The notes beneath the pieces are model-generated. The model ran no database searches and was not told where the DNA came from. It saw only the letters and a list, made by a program, of their open reading frames with translations. Positions 2,642 through 63,918 of a stretch of DNA of 64,000 bases are shown one piece after another. A program made the position numbers and the translations under genes. Location: NCBI RefSeq assembly GCF_024223415.1, contig NZ_CP100500.1; one strand, 5' to 3'. This DNA comes from Escherichia coli. Lineage in GTDB: Bacteria > Pseudomonadota > Gammaproteobacteria > Enterobacterales > Enterobacteriaceae. Numbering within the stretch: position 1 is the first letter of the stretch; each line of letters starts with the position of its first letter.

Positions 2642-3523
2642 ATGGATCTGACCCAACTGGAGATGTTCAACGCGGTTGCCGAAGCTGGCAGCATTACGCA
2701 GGCTGCAGCAATAGTGCATCGCGTGCCGTCGAATCTCACTACCCGTCTACGCCAGCTGGAAACAGAACTGGGGGTAGATCTGTTTATTCGCGAGAATCAG
2801 CGTTTACGTCTATCTCCTGCCGGGCATAACTTTTTACGCTATAGCCAACAAATTCTCGCGTTAGTGGATGAAGCGCGGAGCGTTGTCGCTGGCGATGAGC
2901 CGCAAGGTTTATTTTCTCTGGGTTCGCTGGAAAGCACCGCAGCAGTTCGCATTCCGGCCACGCTGGCGGAATTCAACCGTCGTTATCCCAAAATTCAGTT
3001 TTCACTTTCCACCGGCCCTTCCGGCACTATGCTGGAAGGTGTGCTGGAGGGAAAACTTAATGCGGCGTTTATTGATGGACCCATTAACCATACTGCCATT
3101 GACGGGATACCGGTATACCGCGAGGAGCTGATGATCGTCACGCCACAAGGTCATGCGCCAGTAATCCGTGCCAGTCAGGTTAATGGCAGTAACATTTATG
3201 CCTTCCGTGCCAATTGTTCGTATCGTCGCCACTTCGAGAGCTGGTTTCATGCTGACGGTGCCGCTCCGGGAACTATCCATGAGATGGAGTCTTATCACGG
3301 AATGTTGGCCTGTGTAGTCGCAGGAGCAGGCATTGCGCTTATTCCGCGCTCTATGCTGGAAAGTATGCCGGGGCATCACCAGGTTGAAGCGTGGCCGTTA
3401 GCTGAGCAATGGCGTTGGTTAACAACCTGGCTGGTCTGGCGTCGTGGTGCGAAAACGCGTCCGCTCGAGGCATTTATTCAACTGCTGGATGTGCCTGACT
3501 CGACAAAACAGGGTTACCAATGA
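2642..3523 (+). CDS. yneJ: LysR-family transcriptional regulator YneJ, 293 aa
   Basis: N-terminal HTH (LysR type) plus substrate-binding domain; divergent from sad as is typical for LysR regulators. Confidence 0.85.
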
Positions 3524-3600
3524 GCTATTTTTGATAGTTCTTGCGGCTAATATGCTCTATATAGTGATGTTCCGATGACTTATGACTATATGGGGCAAAT

Positions 3601-4716
3601 ATGGTTACGCCAGTAAGCATCAGCAATTACATATCTCTTCCTGATGATTTTCCCGTTCGTAATATTGCACCGAAGATAAAAGAAGTTTTAAAGGATTTTA
3701 TTGATGCACTTAGTACAATAATATGTAATGAAGAGTGGCGCACGTCTTTAAACATCAACTCAGCCACAAAAAAGATATTTAATAATCTTGACAACTTATC
3801 ATATATTCAGAGGACTTCTTTTCGGGGTAACGACACGCTATACAATGAAAAGGTTCAGTTTAAACTCACTTATCCCGCCAGGAATGGAAGACACAAAGAA
3901 AATATTGAATTTCAGGTAGTAATAAATTTAAGCCCTATTTATTTAGATAATTTCCGCCATGATGGAGAAATTAATATTTTTTGCGCTCCCAACCCAAAGC
4001 CTGTTACTATGGGGCGCGTATTTCAGACCGGCGTCGAGCGTGTGCTCTTTCTGTTTCTGAATGATTTTATTGAACAATTCCCAATGATCAACCCTGGCGT
4101 TCCCATCAAAAGAGCGCATACACCACATATTGAACCCCTGCCTCCGGATCACCATACCGCTGCAGATTACTTACGCCAGTTTGATTTGCTTGTCCTGAAT
4201 TTTATCTCTCGCGGTAATTTTGTCATACTCCCCCGATTATGGAATAACTCTGAGGTTCACAGATGGTTCGTCAATAAAGATCCTAACTTGATCACCGCCA
4301 TTCTCGACATAACGGACAGCGAATTAAAAGAGGATTTATTGCAAAGCCTGATGGATTCATTAGGTTCTAACAAACATGTACTACCCGAAGTCTGCATCTG
4401 TTTTTTATCCCTTTTAGCAGAACAAGAATCTCCTCATTTTCAGGACTTGTTTTTATTTTTCGCCAATATGTTGTTACACTATCACCAATTTATGAATCCC
4501 AATGAAAGTGATTTGAATGACGTGTTGATGCCAGCATCATTAAGTGATGATAAAATTATCAAACATATGGCGCGCAAGACCCTCAAACTTTTTGTAAAAA
4601 ATGAAACACCGCCAAAAGTTACTCATGAAGACCTGGTGAAAAACAGGCCTCGCTCCCCTGTCAGACCACCTATACCCGCAACCTCCAAAACGCCAGACAT
4701 TCCTGATCGTCATTAA
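3601..4716 (+). CDS. yneK: Uncharacterised protein YneK, 371 aa
   Basis: Long ORF with AT-rich codon usage, atypical for the flanking core genes; matches the position and length of K-12 yneK. Confidence 0.7.
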   Translation: MVTPVSISNYISLPDDFPVRNIAPKIKEVLKDFIDALSTIICNEEWRTSLNINSATKKIFNNLDNLSYIQRTSFRGNDTLYNEKVQFKLTYPARNGRHKENIEFQVVINLSPIYLDNFRHDGEINIFCAPNPKPVTMGRVFQTGVERVLFLFLNDFIEQFPMINPGVPIKRAHTPHIEPLPPDHHTAADYLRQFDLLVLNFISRGNFVILPRLWNNSEVHRWFVNKDPNLITAILDITDSELKEDLLQSLMDSLGSNKHVLPEVCICFLSLLAEQESPHFQDLFLFFANMLLHYHQFMNPNESDLNDVLMPASLSDDKIIKHMARKTLKLFVKNETPPKVTHEDLVKNRPRSPVRPPIPATSKTPDIPDRH

Positions 4717-57401: not shown

Positions 57402-58367
57402 TTATCCCCTGAAACCAGGCGGAATTTCTGTATCCGGTTCAGAAATATGATTCACACAACGCTGTACAGGTGAACGTCCCAGGCGGATGACCAGTTCGTC
57501 CCATTTTTCGCGGAGTTTTGACGGGCTCATGATGTTTTTTACCCAGAATTGATCTCGCTGTACCCGACCAAACATTTCGCAAATTTGTCTGTGGCTTCTG
57601 CCATCCAGCATCCGCATTGTGCGCACGTCATTGGCCCAGGCTGTCCAGTTAGGCTCTTTTGGTCGCATGATCTCTCCATCGTCGCTGGCAGCCTGTTCGT
57701 AAAGGTTCACGATCCGCCCCCAAATCCACTGCGCACACGCCAAATCCTCCCTGCTACCCCACTGGCGTTTTTTCGCACTAAACACAACCGCGTCGGGGTT
57801 CCGGGTTAAAAAATCCTGTTCAGCGGTCTGCGGGTCCGGTTGCGAAGCTTCCGGACGAAAAGTGTTTTTATTCTCTGTAGTAATCTCTGTTGTATTCTCT
57901 GTAAGATCATCAGGCCATTTTGACCCGATGACATTGGGTCGTTTTGAACCAATGGAGCGTTTCATTTTGACCTCTTCCATCGTGTCATTTTGACCTGATG
58001 GAGCGGCGCATTTTAAACCGATGGATTCGCTCAATTTGCCACCATCTAAAAGCTCGCTCCCGTAGTTGATCGTGTAGAAATTGGTCATATCGCGCTTTGA
58101 TTTATTGAGCTTTTCACAACGCAAAAGCCCCAGCGTTTTCAGACTTGCAAACGCGCGCTTTAACGTTGACTCTGACCAGAATGGGAACTGTTCCAGCCAT
58201 TGTTCCGTTGTGTTGTAAATCCAGCGAACACCATCACATTCCATGCCGGAATTGGTATCTCTCAACCAGTAATGCAACTGCTGCAACACAATGGCTTCAT
58301 TTAAGCCAATCTTCATCGCAAGCTGTGTGTTTATAACCAGTGGGCGTTCAGCAAAAAGAAGGCTCAT
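57402..58367 (-). CDS. Replication initiation protein (phage O-like / DnaD-like N-terminal domain), about 321 aa
   Basis: Start at MSLLFAERPLVINTQLAMKIGLNEAIVLQQLHYWL; position after the cro/cII-like genes. Confidence 0.6.
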   Translation of the reverse strand: MSLLFAERPLVINTQLAMKIGLNEAIVLQQLHYWLRDTNSGMECDGVRWIYNTTEQWLEQFPFWSESTLKRAFASLKTLGLLRCEKLNKSKRDMTNFYTINYGSELLDGGKLSESIGLKCAAPSGQNDTMEEVKMKRSIGSKRPNVIGSKWPDDLTENTTEITTENKNTFRPEASQPDPQTAEQDFLTRNPDAVVFSAKKRQWGSREDLACAQWIWGRIVNLYEQAASDDGEIMRPKEPNWTAWANDVRTMRMLDGRSHRQICEMFGRVQRDQFWVKNIMSPSKLREKWDELVIRLGRSPVQRCVNHISEPDTEIPPGFRG

Positions 58368-58869
58368 AATTCCATCCAGCTTTTTGTTGGTATTGCTGTC
58401 GATACGCAAGTTTGAAAGCAATTGCTTTTTCTATAAGTTCATCAGTTTCACGATCCACTACGGCAGGATCAGCAAAAAGCAGTCCGGACTCCACCACATC
58501 GCCATATTCTTTGTTTAACCCGGCGATCATGTACGTGATGCTTTTTCCGTCACTAATTTCACGATACAACCTGAAATCATTAATCCGAATAGCCTCCATA
58601 ATTGCAGGCACTAGCGCCGTGAACTTTTCACGCTTATCCCTGGTGTCGATAGCCTTCCAGCGTTCGAATATCTTCACTCGATTAACGCCAAGTGCTCGCT
58701 GATCAACCGCGCCACCTTCATCTGTGACACGCTGAACATCGATGTTCGGGCGCTCTTTCAAAGCCCAGAATGCTTCAGTGATTAATATCGTCGCCTGCTC
58801 CTGTGTCATTCCTGGTCGACATATCCAGGCATCCAGAGCCTCACGAGCCTGTTCAGGAGTGATTTTCAT
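58348..58869 (-). CDS. Hypothetical regulatory protein (cII/YdaT-like position), 173 aa
   Basis: ORF between the cro-like gene and the O-like gene. Confidence 0.45.
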   Translation of the reverse strand: MKITPEQAREALDAWICRPGMTQEQATILITEAFWALKERPNIDVQRVTDEGGAVDQRALGVNRVKIFERWKAIDTRDKREKFTALVPAIMEAIRINDFRLYREISDGKSITYMIAGLNKEYGDVVESGLLFADPAVVDRETDELIEKAIAFKLAYRQQYQQKAGWNYEPSFC

Positions 58870-59080
58870 TGTTCAACCGCCCCGCCCGCTTCGTCTTACG
58901 GTATTCGTCATAAACCTTGGGATCATACAGAAGCTCGCCGCCAGATGCCTCCTGTAGACGCATCGCGCGACCTTCAGGAACCAGCTCTTGCCATTGAGAA
59001 ACAGCAGATGGGTCAACGCCAGCAGCTTTCGCTACTTTGGCTTTCGTACCGTAAAAATTAATTACGTCTGATTTAAACAT
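58853..59080 (-). CDS. dicC: Cro-like repressor DicC, about 75 aa
   Basis: Start at MFKSDVINFYGTKAKVA with GGAGGTG SD; C-terminal half (VPEGRAMRLQEASGGEL...YDEYRKTKRAGRLNNENHS) recognised as DicC. Confidence 0.75.
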   Translation of the reverse strand: MFKSDVINFYGTKAKVAKAAGVDPSAVSQWQELVPEGRAMRLQEASGGELLYDPKVYDEYRKTKRAGRLNNENHS

Positions 59081-59157
59081 CGCACCTCCAATATTGAGTT
59101 TTCTCAATGCTAATCACTCAAGGAATCTCAAGTCAAGGGTTATTAAGATATCTAAAT
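59081..59157. promoter_or_regulatory. Divergent dicC/dicA promoter-operator region
   Basis: Palindrome TTGAGttttCTCAA and repeated TCAAGG motifs between divergent repressor genes. Confidence 0.4.
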
Positions 59158-59565
59158 ATGAACGAGAAAACTTTAGGTCAACGCATTAGAGAAAGACGTA
59201 AGCAGGTAGGCTTAAGTCAAAACGGTTTAAGCAAAGCTGCTGGCGTATCTGGCTCATCAATTTCATTATGGGAAAGTGACCATACAGCCCCGCGCGGGCA
59301 AAATTTGCATCGCCTCGCCGAGGTATTGCAATGTTCACCAACTTGGATACTGTTTGGCGACGAGGACAAAACACCAGCTCCCCCTGTTTCACTCGATAGT
59401 GCCTTAGACTTATCGGAAGATGAGTTAGAGATGCTGCGTTTGTATCGCGCACTTCCTAAATCAGAGCAACAAGCACAACTCAGCGAACTCCGCGCCCGCG
59501 TTGAGAATTTTAATCGCCTGTTCACCGAGCTATTAGAGGCTCGCAAACGCAACAAGCATCAATAA
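59158..59565 (+). CDS. dicA: CI-like XRE-family repressor DicA, 135 aa
   Basis: Start at MNEKTLGQRIRERRKQVGLSQ; HTH_XRE; VLQCSPTWILFGDEDK motif recognised. Confidence 0.8.
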   Translation: MNEKTLGQRIRERRKQVGLSQNGLSKAAGVSGSSISLWESDHTAPRGQNLHRLAEVLQCSPTWILFGDEDKTPAPPVSLDSALDLSEDELEMLRLYRALPKSEQQAQLSELRARVENFNRLFTELLEARKRNKHQ

Positions 59566-59757
59566 TCATCCCTTCACAAAATTTTAAAGCCTTACATTTC
59601 AATGTATTGGCTTTATCTTGCGCCAACACTTGAGTTTTCTCATCAAAAAACCTTGACGAAAAATAATGAGAAAACTAAATTACCTCCATCAAGACACCGC
59701 ACGGTGTTCTCAGCAAACAGTTCCGCTACCCCGGCGTTAAGGGGAAATGAGGTCAGC

Positions 59758-59913
59758 ATGGATACTATCGATCTTGGCAACAGCGAATCTCTGGTATGTG
59801 GCGTGTTCCCCAACCAGGACGGCACGTTCACCGCGATGACGTATACCAAAAGCAAAACGTTTAAAACCGAAAATGGTGCCCGTCGCTGGCTGGAAAGAAA
59901 CTCAGGTGAGTGA
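59758..59913 (+). CDS. ydfA: YdfA, 51 aa
   Basis: MDTIDLGNSESLVCGVFPNQDGTFTAMTYTKSKTFKTENGARRWLERNSGE; not on track. Confidence 0.8.
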   Translation: MDTIDLGNSESLVCGVFPNQDGTFTAMTYTKSKTFKTENGARRWLERNSGE

Positions 59914-59914
59914 T

Positions 59915-60490
59915 ATGGATTTCGACACAATCATGGAAAAGGCTTACGAAGAATACTTCGAAGGCCTTGCCGAAGGCGAAGAAGCTCTCAGCTTCAGTGA
60001 GTTTAAACAGGCACTCAGAATAAGAATGTGCTCTCACAATGACGCGGAGCACAAATATGAGAAGCAAAATCAGACCGCAGAAAATTTTGTTCTGGAACCC
60101 GGAGAAACGCTTTTCAAAATTCCCGTTACGTGCCCCATTTGCGGTTTTACATCAGAAGAACTTGACGACTCCTGTAACAATCAGGAAACAACCAAGTATG
60201 TCGAAGATGATACCGAGTGCGCACGAAGAACGATTATATCCACGAGTCCAAACTCCAGGACCAATAAATCTCACTATGAGAGGGTGATTAATCCACTCCC
60301 CCAAACCAATAAAAAAGATGCCGGAGGACAAAAAACCCAATGGAACAACGGGATATCTGTCAAAAAAAGACGTTCCATTAAAGACAAACAACGCAGCGCC
60401 AACAACTGTAAGCGCTTTATACCAGTAATCAATTTTCATGTTCTTAAGCGGATTTATTGGTGGTTGCGACATTGCTTAATGAATCCTTAA
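59915..60490 (+). CDS. YdfB/YdfC-like protein as a single 192-aa ORF
   Basis: Start ATG overlaps the ydfA stop; N-terminus MDFDTIMEKAYEEYFEGLAEGEEALSFSEFKQAL matches YdfB; contains a CPIC zinc-finger-like motif. Confidence 0.6.
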   Translation: MDFDTIMEKAYEEYFEGLAEGEEALSFSEFKQALRIRMCSHNDAEHKYEKQNQTAENFVLEPGETLFKIPVTCPICGFTSEELDDSCNNQETTKYVEDDTECARRTIISTSPNSRTNKSHYERVINPLPQTNKKDAGGQKTQWNNGISVKKRRSIKDKQRSANNCKRFIPVINFHVLKRIYWWLRHCLMNP

Positions 60491-60749
60491 AACTGTGGTG
60501 ATTTTAAGGATACCACCTCGCCTGACGTGGTTAAAAGCAGGCACACAACACGAAAGCGCACGGCGAAGTTCGTCTCACTGTACGGTGTCGTTAAATTTAA
60601 TTCGACCGTGCGCTTCCGGTTGTGGCAACCCGCAAAATGGCGCGGCGGTAAGTATGGCGGGGTTATTCCTTCCCCGTTGAGGACACCGGGTTGTCAGGTT
60701 GACCATACGCTTAAGTGACAACCCCGCTGCAACGCCCTCTGTTATCAAT

Positions 60750-60807
60750 TTTCTGGTGACGTTTGGCGGTATCAGTTTTACTCCGTGACTGCTCTGCCGC
60801 CCTTTTT
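60750..60807 (+). ncRNA. dicF: DicF small RNA (ftsZ translation inhibitor), with intrinsic terminator
   Basis: TTTCTGGTGACGTTTGGCGGTATCAGTTTTACTCCGTGACTGCTCTGCCGCCCTTTTT read directly; recognised DicF sequence. Confidence 0.7.
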
Positions 60808-60976
60808 AAAGTGAATTTTGTGATGCGGTGAATACGGCTAAGCGCACGCGGAACAGTTAAAACCAAAAACAGTGTTATGGGTGGATTCTCTGTATCCGAC
60901 GTTAATTGTTAACTGGTTAACGTCACCTGGAGGCACCAGGCACTGCATCACAAAATTCATTGTTGAGGACGCGATA

Positions 60977-61165
60977 ATGAAAACGTTATTACCAAACGTT
61001 AATACGTCTGAAGGTTGTTTTGAAATTGGTGTCACTATCAGTAACCCTGTATTTACTGAAGATGCCATTAACAAGAGAAAACAAGAACGGGAGCTATTAA
61101 ATAAAGTATGCATTGTTTCAATGCTGGCTCGTTTACGTCTGATGCCAAAAGGATGTGCACAATGA
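60977..61165 (+). CDS. dicB: Cell-division inhibitor DicB, 62 aa
   Basis: MKTLLPNVNTSEGCFEIGVTISNPVFTEDAINKRKQERELLNKVCIVSMLARLRLMPKGCAQ. Confidence 0.85.
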   Translation: MKTLLPNVNTSEGCFEIGVTISNPVFTEDAINKRKQERELLNKVCIVSMLARLRLMPKGCAQ

Positions 61166-61353
61166 ATTCAGCATTTGCGCTTGTTCTGACAGTTTTTCTT
61201 GTTTCCGGAGTGCCAGTTGATATTGCAGTCAGTGTTCACAGGACAATGCAGGAGTGTATGACTGCAGCAACCGAACAGAAAATTCCCGGTAACTGTTACC
61301 CGGTCGATAAAGTTATTCACCAGGATAATATCGAAATCCCGGCAGGTCTTTAA
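61162..61353 (+). CDS. ydfD: YdfD (small membrane protein), 63 aa
   Basis: Start ATG overlaps the dicB stop; MNSAFALVLTVFLVSGVPVDIAV... Confidence 0.8.
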   Translation: MNSAFALVLTVFLVSGVPVDIAVSVHRTMQECMTAATEQKIPGNCYPVDKVIHQDNIEIPAGL

Positions 61354-61446
61354 AACAGTTCCGTAATAAATATCCGGTTTCATTCTTATATGCCAGCAAT
61401 GGCAGGGATTTGTTCATCCTTAAATCTGTCATGAGGTTAAAACAAA

Positions 61447-63918
61447 ATGAGTAAAGTCTTTATTTGCGCCGCTATTCCTGACGAACTGGCAACAAGGGAA
61501 GAAGGCGCTGTGGCTGTAGCCACAGCCATTGAAGCTGGCGACGAACGCCGTGCTCGAGCAAAATTTCACTGGCAATTCCTGGAACATTATCCGGCTGCTC
61601 AGGACTGCGCTTATAAATTTATTGTCTGCGAGGATAAACCTGGCATACCCCGCCCTGCCCTCGATTCATGGGATGCTGAATATATGCAGGAAAACCGCTG
61701 GGATGAGGAGTCTGCTTCTTTTGTCCCGGTTGAGACTGAATCCGATCCGATGAACGTCACTTTTGACAAGCTGGCCCCTGAAGTACAGAACGCTGTCATG
61801 GTTAAGTTCGACACATGTGAAAACATCACCGTTGATATGGTTATTAGCGCACAGGAATTGTTGCAGGAAGACATGGCAACATTCGACGGACATATCGTTG
61901 AAGCGTTGATGAAAATGCCAGAAGTTAACGCCATGTATCCGGAGCTTAAGTTGCACGCCATTGGGTGGGTTAAGCATAAATGTATTCCTGGTGCTAAATG
62001 GCCCGAAATTCAGGCAGAGATGCGCATCTGGAAAAAACGTCGCGAAGGTGAACGCAAGGAAACCGGAAAATACACGTCTGTTGTTGATCTCGCCCGCGCC
62101 AGAGCCAATCAACAGTACACTGAAAATTCAACAGGAAAAATCAGCCCGGTCATTGCTGCCATTCATCGCGAATACAAGCAGACATGGAAAACACTGGATG
62201 ACGAACTGGCCTACGCTCTCTGGCCTGGTGATGTGGATGCCGGAAACATTGACGGCAGCATCCATCGCTGGGCAAAAAAAGAAGTTATCGACAACGACCG
62301 CGAAGACTGGAAGCGTATCTCGGCATCAATGCGCAAACAGCCTGATGCCCTTCGCTACGACCGCCAAACTATTTTTGGCCTTGTCCGTGAGCGTCCGATC
62401 GACATTCACAAAGATCCCGTAGCACTGAACAAATATACCTGCGAATACCTGACGACAAAGGGCGTGTTTGAGAATGAAGAAACAGACCTGGGCACTGTTG
62501 ATGTTCTCCAGTCATCAGAAACACAAACTGATGCAGTGGAAACTGAGGTATCTGATATCCCAAAAAATGAAACCGCGCCGGAAGCTGAACCATCTGTAGA
62601 GCGTGAGGGGCCGTTCTATTTCCTCTTCGCAGATAAGGACGGAGAAAAATACGGTCGCGCAAACAAACTTTCTGGTCTGGATAAGGCACTGGCTGCTGGC
62701 GCCACTGAAATCACAAAAGAAGAATATTTTGCCCGAAAAAATGGCACATACACGGGCTTACCGCAAAATGTAGATACCGCTGAAGATTCAGAACAACCAG
62801 AGCCGATAAAAGTTACCGCTGACGAAGTAAACAAAATTATGCAGGCAGCCAATATCAGCCAGCCTGACGCCGATAAGTTGCTTGCTGCATCACGTGGTGA
62901 ATTTGTTGAAGGGATTAGTGACCCGAATGATCCGAAATGGGTTAAGGGGATCCAGACCCGCGATTCTGTGAACCAGAACCAGCATGAATCGGAACGGAAC
63001 TACCAAAAAGCGGAACAAAACAGTCCAAATGCGTTACAAAACGAGCCAGAAACGAAACAGCCTGAACCAGTGGCGCACCAGGAAGTGGAAAAAGCCTGCA
63101 CCGCCTGCGGTCAGACCGGCGGCGGCAACTGCCCTGATTGTGGCGCGGTGATGGGCGACGCAACATACCAGGAAACATTCGATGAAGAGTATCAGGTTGA
63201 AGTTCAGGAAGATGATCCGGAGGAAATGGAAGGCGCTGAACATCCACACAAGGAGAACACTGGCGGCAATCAGCATCACAATAGCGATAATGAAACTGGC
63301 GAGACGGCAGATCACCCAATTAAGGTGAACGGTCATCACGAAATCACATCCACCAGCAGGACGTGTGACCATCTAATGATCGACCTTGAAACCATGGGAA
63401 AAAATCCTGATGCCCCGATCATCTCAATAGGTGCAATATTTTTCGATCCGCAAACCGGAGATATGGGACCGGAATTTAGTAAGACTATCGATCTGGAAAC
63501 TGCTGGCGGAGTCATTGATCGGGACACCATTAAATGGTGGCTTAAGCAATCACGCGAAGCGCAATCTGCCATTATGACCGATGAAATCCCGTTAGATGAT
63601 GCACTGTTACAATTGCGGGAATTTATCGACGAAAACTCCGGTGAATTTTTTGTTCAGGTTTGGGGAAATGGAGCCAACTTCGACAACACGATTTTGCGCC
63701 GTTCATACGAACGGCAGGGGATCCCCTGCCCGTGGCGTTACTACAACGATCGCGATGTACGCACAATCGTTGAGCTGGGGAAAGCCATAGACTTCGATGC
63801 CAGAACGGCTATTCCATTCGAAGGTGAGCGCCATAATGCACTTGATGACGCCCGTTACCAGGCAAAATACGTTTCAGTTATCTGGCAAAAACTGATCCCA
63901 AGTCAGGCTGATTCTTAA
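61447..63918 (+). CDS. YdfE-like protein with central zinc ribbon and C-terminal DEDDh 3'-5' exonuclease (DnaQ-like) domain, 823 aa
   Basis: C-terminal motifs MIDLET (Exo I), WGNGANFD (Exo II), [10 protein letters not shown] (Exo III); CTACGQ...CPDCG zinc ribbon. Confidence 0.75.

What the first reader, a model, noticed from the sequence alone, without database searches (positions are those of the whole stretch)
59758..61353. ydfA-ydfB/C-dicF-dicB-ydfD operon with ydfB and ydfC as one 192-aa ORF
The ORF that starts with the YdfB N-terminus continues uninterrupted for 192 codons and includes a CPIC zinc-finger-like motif, whereas K-12 has separate 42- and 72-aa genes here. The structured about 250-nt leader before dicF (about 60500-60750) may be the RNase III/E processing substrate. 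dicB and ydfD follow with an overlapping stop/start.
Basis: partly seen in the sequence, partly recalled or inferred. Interest (0 to 1): 0.45.

Follow-up and report, generated by a model that had tools for sequence, protein, structure and literature searches.

The report
Two genes overlapping on opposite strands
The long reading frame is real but is not a fused ydfB-ydfC: a swapped-in 517-base prophage cassette puts a small membrane-protein gene on the opposite strand, entirely inside it, and evolution has kept both frames open, a rare well-supported case of two genes sharing the same DNA.

Summary
The operon call is right. It contains no ydfC. Window 60016-60532 has no homology to the K-12 segment holding the ydfB 3' end and ydfC, and ydfC is absent from the whole window.

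The swapped-in 517-bp cassette occurs in 805 of 5426 complete E. coli genomes and in phage HannyBb. On the minus strand (60152-60472) it carries a 106-aa, three-helix membrane protein. That family has invariant DYWYKA and GLGEWxNHP motifs and relatives in Yersinia, Herminiimonas and Reinekea. It is under purifying selection (omega 0.12-0.20). It occupies the slot that sieB holds in Rac, but is not homologous to SieB.

The plus ORF also looks real:
- A short head (PGE..IPxxCPxCGF) evolves mainly by synonymous changes.
- Its tail, the in-phase antisense read of the membrane gene, has free amino-acid sequence (omega above 1).
- The tail is kept stop-free because the membrane gene avoids TTA/CTA/TCA: 0 of 177 codons in 11 lineages, against 33 of 86 in 5 lineages without the ORF.

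Why it stays open is inferred, not shown. My preferred reading is ribosome cover of the early-operon transcript.

The parts
59758..59913 (+). ydfA (DUF1391), 51 aa, first gene of the dicB-type early operon
   Evidence: PF07151 E 8.8e-28. 97% DNA identity to K-12. RefSeq annotation in L001.
59915..60490 (+). 192-codon chimeric ORF (191 aa): YdfB residues 1-34, then the cassette ORF (phrog_35040)
   Evidence: ORF list. 34/34 identity to the YdfB N-terminus only. No YdfC similarity. phrog_35040 E 4e-141. Annotated as hypothetical WP_000344958.1 in some RefSeq genomes and as a ydfB pseudogene in others.
59915..60016 (+). YdfB-derived N-terminal part of the ORF, with the ydfB ribosome-binding site and start
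   Evidence: Homology to K-12 ends at 60015. tblastn of YdfB residues 1-34 maps to 59915-60016. AF2 predicts helices with pLDDT 80-86.
60016..60532 (.). 517-bp cassette that replaces the ydfB 3' end, ydfC and about 120 bp of K-12
   Evidence: No blastn homology to K-12 L002 3267-3662. Present in 805 of 5426 complete E. coli genomes and in phage HannyBb at 99.6%.
60098..60151 (+). Conserved head of the plus ORF (PGETLFKIPVTCPICGFT), outside the overlap; CPIC is at 60131-60142
   Evidence: pN/pS is 0.24-0.45 in most comparisons between lineages. Window vs L068, last 11 codons: differences at codon positions 1/2/3 are 0/1/9. Synonymous codon series are visible in alignment A1.
60152..60472 (-). 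106-aa three-helix membrane protein gene (DYWYKA / GLGEWxNHP family), wholly inside the plus ORF, codon-for-codon in phase
   Evidence: 60 homologues of about 100-110 aa, including Yersinia 51%, Herminiimonas 43% and Reinekea 41%. Invariant motifs. Omega 0.12-0.20, with changes concentrated at its third codon positions. AF2 pLDDT 82.6, helices at 17-32, 42-62 and 85-105.
60473..60550 (-). Conserved upstream block of the membrane gene: promoter-like TTAACC, 16 nt, TGgTATCCT, followed by a hairpin (60481-60509) before the start codon
   Evidence: Conserved in six lineages. The hairpin recurs with different inner-stem sequences (window z -4.1). The simple promoter scan did not flag it, so the promoter reading is an inference.
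60491..60750 (+). Structured untranslated leader upstream of dicF
   Evidence: 97.7% identical to K-12 from 60533. MFE -114.4 kcal/mol, z -3.08. Processing described in PMC5069750.
60751..60802 (+). DicF sRNA with its terminator hairpin and T-run
   Evidence: RF00039, 76.7 bits, E 3.4e-16, full-length model match.
60977..61165 (+). dicB, cell-division inhibitor, 62 aa
   Evidence: PF05358 E 1.8e-40. RefSeq annotation.
61162..61353 (+). ydfD (DUF1482, annotated as lysis protein), 63 aa; its start overlaps the dicB stop (ATGA)
   Evidence: PF07358 E 2.2e-25. Sequence.

Best explanation
Shown:
- The 192-codon ORF is an in-frame chimera. The ydfB start and first 34 codons are joined to the plus-strand ORF of a 517-bp prophage cassette that replaced the ydfB tail and ydfC.
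- The cassette is a two-gene module coded on both strands.
- The minus strand encodes a 106-aa three-helix inner-membrane protein. It has what looks like its own promoter and sits convergent inside the early (dicB-type) operon. This is the slot that sieB occupies in Rac.
- The plus strand encodes an ORF of about 155 codons in the stand-alone cassette. It has a Shine-Dalgarno sequence and a start codon, a head of roughly 18-35 aa under purifying selection, and a tail of about 115 aa. The tail is the codon-for-codon antisense read of the membrane gene.
- The amino-acid sequence of the tail drifts freely, but the frame is held open. The membrane gene never uses TTA, CTA or TCA, the only three codons that read as stops on the other strand.

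Inferred:
- In a lysogen the early operon is repressed, and the membrane protein is made as a 'moron', most likely an exclusion or abortive-infection factor.
- After derepression, RNA polymerase must cross this gene head-on to reach dicF, dicB, the exonuclease, xis and int.
- Ribosomes translating the plus ORF keep that A/C-rich stretch covered. This would protect it from Rho-dependent termination and from pairing with the abundant antisense mRNA.
- That would explain why openness, and not sequence, is selected.
For: Cassette swap:
- blastn against K-12 shows the break in homology.
- YdfC is absent.
- L062 has the cassette followed by an intact ydfC.

Minus gene is real:
- 60 homologues across gamma- and beta-proteobacteria, with invariant motifs.
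- Omega 0.12-0.20. Differences at its codon positions 1/2/3 are, for example, 11/7/35.
- Confident three-helix model.
- It has the same position, between a cI-like repressor gene and the early-left genes, in Yersinia, metagenomic and Escherichia prophages. The layout parallels Rac ydaG-ydaF-sieB-kilS-kilR.

Plus ORF is real:
- Head pN/pS is 0.24-0.45, with differences mainly at third positions.
- A start codon with a Shine-Dalgarno sequence lies 33-40 codons before the overlap in most lineages.
- There are zero in-phase antisense stops in 11 lineages, although those genes use A-ending codons normally elsewhere (A3 0.11-0.37). A-ending counts are CTN 0/106, TCN 0/39 and TTR 0/32. Five lineages without the ORF use them 33/86 (Fisher p 6e-19).
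- The per-lineage chance of zero stops is 0.002-0.09.
- Conserved Leu and Ser columns turn over among CTT/CTC/CTG/TTG and TCC/TCT/TCG without ever hitting the stop-like codons.
- Two divergent head types, CPxCGF and GSVTLIGW, carry the same tail.
- Among 44 E. coli-type alleles, the plus ORF is intact in 38 and the minus ORF in 41.

Sequence-independent role of the tail:
- Plus-frame omega is 1.1-1.7 in the closer comparisons that span different cassette lineages (dS above about 0.25).
- AF2 gives pLDDT of about 40 for residues 84-171.

Relevance of Rho: Rho/NusG termination silences read-through into kilR in Rac (PMC5793797).
Against: - No expression or ribosome data are available here. Translation of either frame is inferred from evolution only.
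- The lineages are not fully independent, so the p-values overstate significance.
- In L068 the plus ORF stops right after CPICGFTSE and the membrane gene carries 8 stop-like codons. The tail is therefore dispensable in at least one prophage.
- About 490 nt of untranslated RNA follow the ORF before dicB anyway, which weakens a pure anti-polarity argument.
- The plus-strand C/G ratio in the overlap is only 1.20, so it is not a striking Rho-loading site.
- Rac tolerates 7 stops antisense to sieB.
- The exclusion function of the membrane protein rests on position alone. PADLOC, Pfam, NCBIfam and the fold search gave nothing.
Confidence: 0.55

Rival explanations
1. True dual coding with a functional tail. 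The plus ORF makes a protein whose basic, disordered tail does something itself. For example it could neutralise the membrane protein when the prophage is induced (an Esc-like escape factor), or bind nucleic acid. The frame would then be kept open because the full-length protein is needed.
For: - The same stop avoidance and head conservation as above.
- Two head types share the tail.
- The tail automatically inherits invariant segments, FIPV(I/V) and P(L/F)xQ, from the invariant DYWYKA and GLGEW motifs.
- AF2 gives a weak C-terminal helix at 171-189.
Against: - Plus-frame omega is 1.1-1.7 in the overlap, and the synonymous rate of the minus gene is not depressed (dS 0.4-0.8).
- There is no confident fold.
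- L068 lacks the tail.
- There are no characterised homologues. The family has only 30 clusters, all unnamed.
Confidence: 0.25
2. Shadow ORF. Only the minus-strand membrane gene is real. The 192-codon frame is the usual long open frame seen in phase opposite a gene, joined by chance to a truncated ydfB. This is the PGAP reading: a ydfB pseudogene missing its C-terminus.
For: - PGAP annotates a partial ydfB pseudogene in most genomes.
- Plus-frame omega is above 1 and the tail is predicted disordered.
- In-phase antisense frames are open in 0-38% of neighbouring-gene windows of the same length.
Against: - The avoidance is specific to three codons, 0/177 against 33/86, while other A-ending codons are used normally.
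- The distribution is bimodal: 0 stops, or 5-17.
- The head lies outside the minus gene and evolves by synonymous change.
- Conserved starts with Shine-Dalgarno sequences are present.
Confidence: 0.12
3. ydfB and ydfC were ancestrally one gene, intact here, and K-12 split it by a frameshift or nonsense mutation.
For: The ORF begins with the YdfB N-terminus and lies where K-12 has ydfB and ydfC.
Against: - There is no protein or DNA similarity to ydfC in the ORF or anywhere in the window.
- YdfC is phrog_1744 and the ORF is phrog_35040.
- L062 carries the cassette and an intact ydfC side by side.
Confidence: 0.02

Closest known systems
Qin prophage dicB operon of E. coli K-12 (ydfA-ydfB-ydfC-dicF-dicB-ydfD)
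   Same: ydfA, the first 34 codons of ydfB, the dicF leader from 60533, dicF, dicB and ydfD are 97-98% identical and in the same order. DicF processing from the polycistronic transcript is published.
   Different: The ydfB tail, ydfC and about 120 bp are replaced by an unrelated 517-bp cassette with a gene on the opposite strand. The repressor region upstream also differs from K-12 dicA/dicC, with only a 66-bp match at 82%.
sieB locus of the Rac prophage (ydaG-ydaF-[sieB, opposite strand]-kilS-kilR). sieB of lambda and P22, with the sas antisense RNA cut from the PL transcript, is cited from my own knowledge (Ranade and Poteete 1993).
   Same: A membrane-protein gene lies convergent inside the early-left operon. 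It comes just after a DUF1391 gene and before an sRNA and an FtsZ inhibitor. The early transcript is necessarily antisense to it.
   Different: There is no sequence relationship to SieB (hhalign probability 0.3%). The protein is 106 aa against 162 aa. Rac sieB has 7 in-phase antisense stops and no ORF across it, whereas here an ORF spans the whole gene.
Antisense embedded overlapping genes reported in E. coli O157:H7 (for example ano in ECs2385; Zehentner et al. 2020 preprint)
   Same: A long ORF pair on opposite strands of the same DNA.
   Different: Those cases rest mainly on ribosome profiling and phenotypes, and they are short ORFs inside long conserved genes. Here the evidence is comparative: codon-specific stop avoidance across lineages down to about 40% identity. 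The conserved gene is the embedded one. I found no mention of this locus.
Lar-like / zinc-ribbon small phage proteins (phrog_6422)
   Same: A CPxCG knuckle preceded by a hydrophobic strand. There is a weak PHROG hit (E 0.38).
   Different: Only one Cys pair is conserved. The second head type replaces CPxC with TLI/TLV. The hit is not significant.

Membership tests
YdfB (K-12 b1572, phrog_2061) | Full-length similarity to the 42-aa protein, including its C-terminus and stop | tested here: not met
   Residues 1-34 are identical. Residues 35-42 and the stop are replaced, and DNA homology ends at 60015. phrog_2061 matches residues 1-34 only.
YdfC (K-12 b1573, phrog_1744) | Sequence similarity to the 72-aa YdfC | tested here: not met
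   BLASTP E 17. No phrog_1744 hit. No tblastn or blastn hit anywhere in the window.
DicF RNA (Rfam RF00039) | Covariance-model score above the gathering threshold, with the terminator hairpin | tested here: met
   76.7 bits against 48, model positions 1-52 of 52, at 60751-60802.
DicB (PF05358), YdfD (DUF1482, PF07358), YdfA (DUF1391, PF07151) | Pfam match above the curated cutoff | tested here: met
   136.9, 88.7 and 96.2 bits, against cutoffs of 27, 25 and 27.3.
SieB superinfection-exclusion proteins | Homology to SieB | tested here: not met
   hhalign of family alignment A2 against Rac SieB gives probability 0.3%. Pfam scan has no SieB hit at E up to 1.
SieB superinfection-exclusion proteins | Membrane-protein gene placed convergent within the early-left operon next to the repressor region | tested here: met
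   Contexts L005-L013 and the Rac map.
SieB superinfection-exclusion proteins | Excludes or aborts superinfecting phage | not testable with these tools
   Needs plaque or efficiency-of-plating assays. PADLOC gave no hit.
Antisense overlapping gene pair | Both frames intact and each under selection | tested here: met
   Minus frame: omega 0.12-0.20. Plus frame: head pN/pS 0.24-0.45, and codon-specific stop avoidance in the tail. There is no amino-acid-level constraint on the tail.
Antisense overlapping gene pair | Both frames transcribed and translated | not testable with these tools
Zinc-ribbon / Lar-like proteins | Two conserved Cys pairs (four zinc ligands) | tested here: not met
   Only CPxC is conserved. 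There is no second conserved pair, and five lineages have no Cys pair in the head at all.

The most novel reading that the evidence does not exclude
This is an old, mobile two-strand gene module of temperate phages. A conserved membrane-protein gene lies completely inside an early-operon ORF on the other strand. The outer ORF is maintained by selection against only the three codons that would stop it, and not by selection on its protein sequence. If so, translation itself would be the selected function. It could act as a built-in anti-polarity or self-silencing device that lets an N-less prophage read through its own convergent moron. It would also be one of the few antisense gene overlaps in bacteria backed by comparative evidence.
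Probability: 0.45. Interest if true: 0.78.

Novelty: new variant of a known kind. Interest (0 to 1): 0.6.

Why it matters
Long antisense gene overlaps in bacteria are disputed. Most candidates rest on ribosome profiling alone and lack evolutionary support.

Here the support is comparative and simple to check. One gene avoids exactly the three codons that would close the frame on the other strand, and lineages that lost the second ORF use those codons freely.

The locus is testable with one silent base change, in a phage that can be grown (HannyBb) or in common O26 and other E. coli lysogens.

It also matters for annotation. RefSeq labels this spot either as a broken ydfB or as a hypothetical protein, and none of the four annotated records examined here lists the conserved membrane gene. 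That gene has no Pfam, NCBIfam, PHROG or PADLOC family.

Finally, it bears on how the DicF/DicB cell-division inhibitors get expressed from prophages that lack lambda-type antitermination.

Tried and rejected
There is nothing to align, because the segment is non-homologous.
- Family assignment of the membrane protein. Pfam, PHROGs, NCBIfam and PADLOC gave no significant hit. Foldseek against viral structures had a best E of 0.025 with TM 0.43, which is not meaningful. The afdb50 library was unavailable.
- SieB homology: rejected.
- Zinc-ribbon reading of CPIC: rejected as a defining feature. There is no second Cys pair, and a Cys-less head type exists.
- Conserved head as an RNA hairpin or terminator of the minus gene. 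By eye there is only a 4-bp stem, which is not kept in L005. The terminator scan found nothing there. Its two hits lie elsewhere and match the number expected in shuffles. The three-base pattern of changes fits coding instead.
- General depletion of A-ending codons as the cause of stop avoidance: rejected, because other codon families use A normally.
- Strong C-over-G bias as evidence of a Rho site: only 1.20, so this is left as weak support.
- Pair counting on the 5' hairpin. The MAFFT alignment put the arms out of register, so I folded each sequence singly instead.
- Literature search for this locus as an overlapping gene pair: nothing found.
Full report
**What is in the sequence**

The stretch 59758-61353 is a Qin/Rac-type early ("dicB") operon on the plus strand.

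| Feature | Coordinates | Evidence |
|---|---|---|
| ydfA | 59758-59913 | DUF1391, E 9e-28 |
| ORF, 192 codons with its stop | 59915-60490 | |
| DicF | 60751-60802 | RF00039, 76.7 bits against a gathering score of 48 |
| dicB | 60977-61165 | PF05358 |
| ydfD | 61162-61353 | DUF1482; ATGA overlap with dicB |

The first 34 residues of the ORF are identical to K-12 YdfB, and CPIC lies at 60131-60142.

**The ydfB/ydfC fusion idea fails**

- blastn against the K-12 Qin region shows homology at 59687-60015 (97%) and 60533-61868 (97.7%). Nothing matches between those points.
- Window 60016-60532 (517 bp) stands where K-12 has 396 bp holding the last 8 codons of ydfB, ydfC and a spacer.
- The ORF has no similarity to YdfC (BLASTP E 17). 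It belongs to phrog_35040, whereas YdfC is phrog_1744.
- ydfC is absent from the entire 64-kb window.
- In a related prophage (L062) the same cassette sits directly after the operon leader and is followed by an intact ydfC. Cassette and ydfC are independent modules.
- The right-hand junction in the window lies in a short sequence (TAAAAGCAGGCA... / GAAAAGTCAGACCATAACGCGAAAGCG) that flanks ydfC on both sides in L062. This fits loss of ydfC by recombination between these repeats (inference).
- The cassette is common. It occurs in 805 of 5426 complete E. coli genomes, nearly all at 99% identity or more. It is also in the isolated temperate phage HannyBb.

**A gene on the other strand**

Several lines of evidence show it is a real gene.

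- It has 60 database relatives of 100-110 aa covering its whole length. They include Yersinia enterocolitica (51%), Herminiimonas (43%) and Reinekea (41%).
- The motifs DYWYKA and GLGEWxNHP are invariant.
- Between E. coli-type alleles its omega is 0.12-0.20, and changes pile up at its third codon positions, for example 11/7/35.
- AlphaFold gives a confident model (pLDDT 82.6) with three long hydrophobic helices and a beta-hairpin.
- No Pfam, PHROG, NCBIfam or PADLOC family covers it, and the structure search was uninformative.
- None of the four annotated records I inspected lists it, although it exists as a 'hypothetical protein' in NCBI.

**Where it sits**

- In Yersinia, metagenomic and Escherichia prophages the gene always lies between the cI-like repressor gene and the early-left genes. 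It points against the early-left genes.
- Rac in K-12 has the same layout with a different gene: racR, ydaG, ydaF (DUF1391), then sieB on the opposite strand, then the sRNA kilS and the FtsZ inhibitor kilR.
- The window reads repressor, ydfA (DUF1391), ydfB head, membrane gene on the opposite strand, dicF, dicB.
- The 106-aa gene is therefore a positional analogue of sieB. It is not a homologue (hhalign probability 0.3%).
- A conserved block upstream of it reads as a promoter: TTAACC, 16 nt, TGgTATCCT. A hairpin follows whose inner stem changes sequence between lineages but keeps pairing.
- The simple promoter scan did not flag this site, so the promoter reading is an inference.

**Is the plus ORF then just a shadow?**

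The two frames are exactly in phase. Each plus codon is the reverse complement of a minus codon. In this arrangement stops arise only from TTA, CTA and TCA in the minus gene, and long empty frames are common. I expected an artefact. Four results argue otherwise.

1. *The head is coding.* The 18 codons just before the overlap (PGETLFKIPVTCPICGFT) lie outside the minus gene.
   - They are conserved as protein, with synonymous series such as ATT/ATC/ATA, CCC/CCA/CCG/CCT, TGC/TGT, GGT/GGA and TTT/TTC.
   - pN/pS is 0.24-0.45 in most comparisons between lineages. Window against L068 differs at codon positions 1/2/3 by 0/1/9 over the last 11 codons.

2. *Starts are conserved.* Most lineages have a start codon with a Shine-Dalgarno sequence 33-40 codons before the overlap. 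In the window, the ydfB start serves this role.

3. *The frame is kept open by specific codon avoidance.*
   - The frame has no stops in 11 lineages whose membrane proteins are as little as about 40% identical to the window's.
   - Homologues without a head ORF, or with a terminated one, carry 5-17 stops.
   - The open lineages use A-ending codons normally in other families (A3 0.11-0.37). They use them never in CTN (0/106), TCN (0/39) or TTR (0/32).
   - The closed lineages use them 33/86 (Fisher p 6e-19). That p-value is overstated by shared ancestry.
   - At conserved Leu and Ser columns, codons turn over among the four and three allowed synonyms only.
   - The per-lineage chance of zero stops, from neighbouring genes' codon usage, is 0.002-0.09.

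4. *Two head types share the tail.* A second, Cys-less head type (..PGSV....GSVTLIGW.L) is joined to the same antisense tail in five further lineages.

**What the tail is not**

- Within the overlap, the plus-frame omega is 1.1-1.7 in the closer comparisons that span different cassette lineages (dS above about 0.25). The synonymous rate of the minus gene is not depressed (dS 0.4-0.8). There is no amino-acid-level selection on the tail.
- AlphaFold predicts it as disordered, with pLDDT of about 40 for residues 84-171. The YdfB-derived part is helical.
- One prophage (L068) ends the ORF right after CPICGFTSE and lets the membrane gene accumulate 8 stop-like codons.
- The plus-ORF family has only 30 clusters, all unnamed and all from such cassettes.
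- Among 44 E. coli-type alleles, the plus frame is intact in 38 and the minus frame in 41.

**How it most likely works**

Shown: a two-strand module with a selected membrane protein, a selected head peptide, and a frame held open across the membrane gene.

Inferred: the membrane protein is made in the lysogen from its own promoter, as a moron of the sieB kind. On derepression, the early operon is transcribed head-on through it, and ribosomes must keep translating to the far side.

The most economical reason for selecting openness but not sequence is protection of the transcript. The threats would be Rho-dependent termination and pairing with the antisense mRNA. Rho/NusG is known to silence read-through into kilR in Rac, and Rac has 7 stops opposite sieB.

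Weak points:
- About 490 untranslated bases follow before dicB.
- The overlap has only a modest C-over-G bias (1.20).
- L068 is an exception.

A functional disordered tail, for example an escape factor against the membrane protein, remains a serious rival. The pure shadow-ORF reading is now unlikely.

**The leader**

- The 260 nt before dicF are the K-12 ydfC-dicF spacer (97.7% identical from 60533).
- They fold more stably than all shuffles (z -3.08).
- That DicF is cut from the polycistronic RNA is published. RNase E makes the 5' end. The terminator or RNase III makes the 3' end (PMC5069750).
- This part of the finding is correct but already known.

**Verdict**

| Component | Assessment |
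|---|---|
| Operon, DicF, dicB, ydfD | Ordinary and already known |
| ydfB-ydfC fusion | Wrong |
| Cassette with a fully embedded antisense gene pair, supported by comparative codon evidence | New; a variant of known kinds (sieB-type morons, antisense overlapping genes); worth an experiment |

Noticed in passing
window 60473-60550 (minus strand): There is a conserved block upstream of the membrane gene: TTAACC/TTATCC, 16-17 nt, TG.TATCCT, then a hairpin. The hairpin's inner stem changes (AAAAU/GUUUU, AAAGC/GCUUU, AAGG/CCUU) but keeps pairing. The block also holds interleaved inverted repeats, CCAC..GTGG and GCCTG..CAGGC, which could be an operator or a pseudoknot on the plus RNA.
   Followed up: partly
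window 60800-61009: A sub-threshold Rfam match to STnc100 (34.6 bits against a gathering score of 47, E 7.5e-5) covers the dicF-dicB spacer and the dicB start.
   Followed up: no
L062 (reverse complement) 2893-3630: In this prophage the cassette replaces ydfA-ydfB. The plus frame stays open for 279 codons, through the cassette and on into ydfC in frame.
   Followed up: partly
window 60533-60560; L002 3650-3690; L062 (reverse complement) 3375-3400 and 3745-3775: A short similar motif, AAAAG(T)CAG(G/A)C..AAC.CGAA, flanks ydfC on both sides in L062-type prophages. It is the junction where the window lacks ydfC, which suggests deletion by recombination between the repeats.
   Followed up: partly
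L001 3216-3317; L003 1400-1975; L093 3358-3975: Public annotation is inconsistent. The same DNA is called a partial ydfB pseudogene, a 191-aa hypothetical protein or a 205-aa hypothetical protein. The conserved membrane gene is not annotated in any of the four records inspected.
   Followed up: yes
L013 (about 4325-4345) and L051/L061: Natural knock-outs of the plus ORF exist. One is a GGT to TGA change in the head (L013). Another is a TGC to TGA change in the tail, shared by L051 and L061, which is also an Ala to Ser change in the membrane protein. These could serve as natural experiments.
   Followed up: partly
L092 2672-3160 (Rac, K-12): Rac sieB overlaps the end of ydaF by 4 bases and has 7 in-phase antisense stops. 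The early-left transcript therefore crosses about 490 untranslated bases before kilS and kilR. This may be where Rho silences kilR.
   Followed up: no
window 59107-59565 and 58348-59107: The repressor region differs from K-12 dicA/dicC, with only a 66-bp match at 82%. It resembles Rac-type modules (HTH repressor, Cro/CI-like, YdaT-like), so this prophage is a Qin/Rac mosaic.
   Followed up: no
window 61447-63918: An 823-aa ORF annotated 'exonuclease' follows ydfD. It has a long acidic, low-complexity middle and a Cys-rich [16 protein letters not shown] segment. It was not examined.
   Followed up: no
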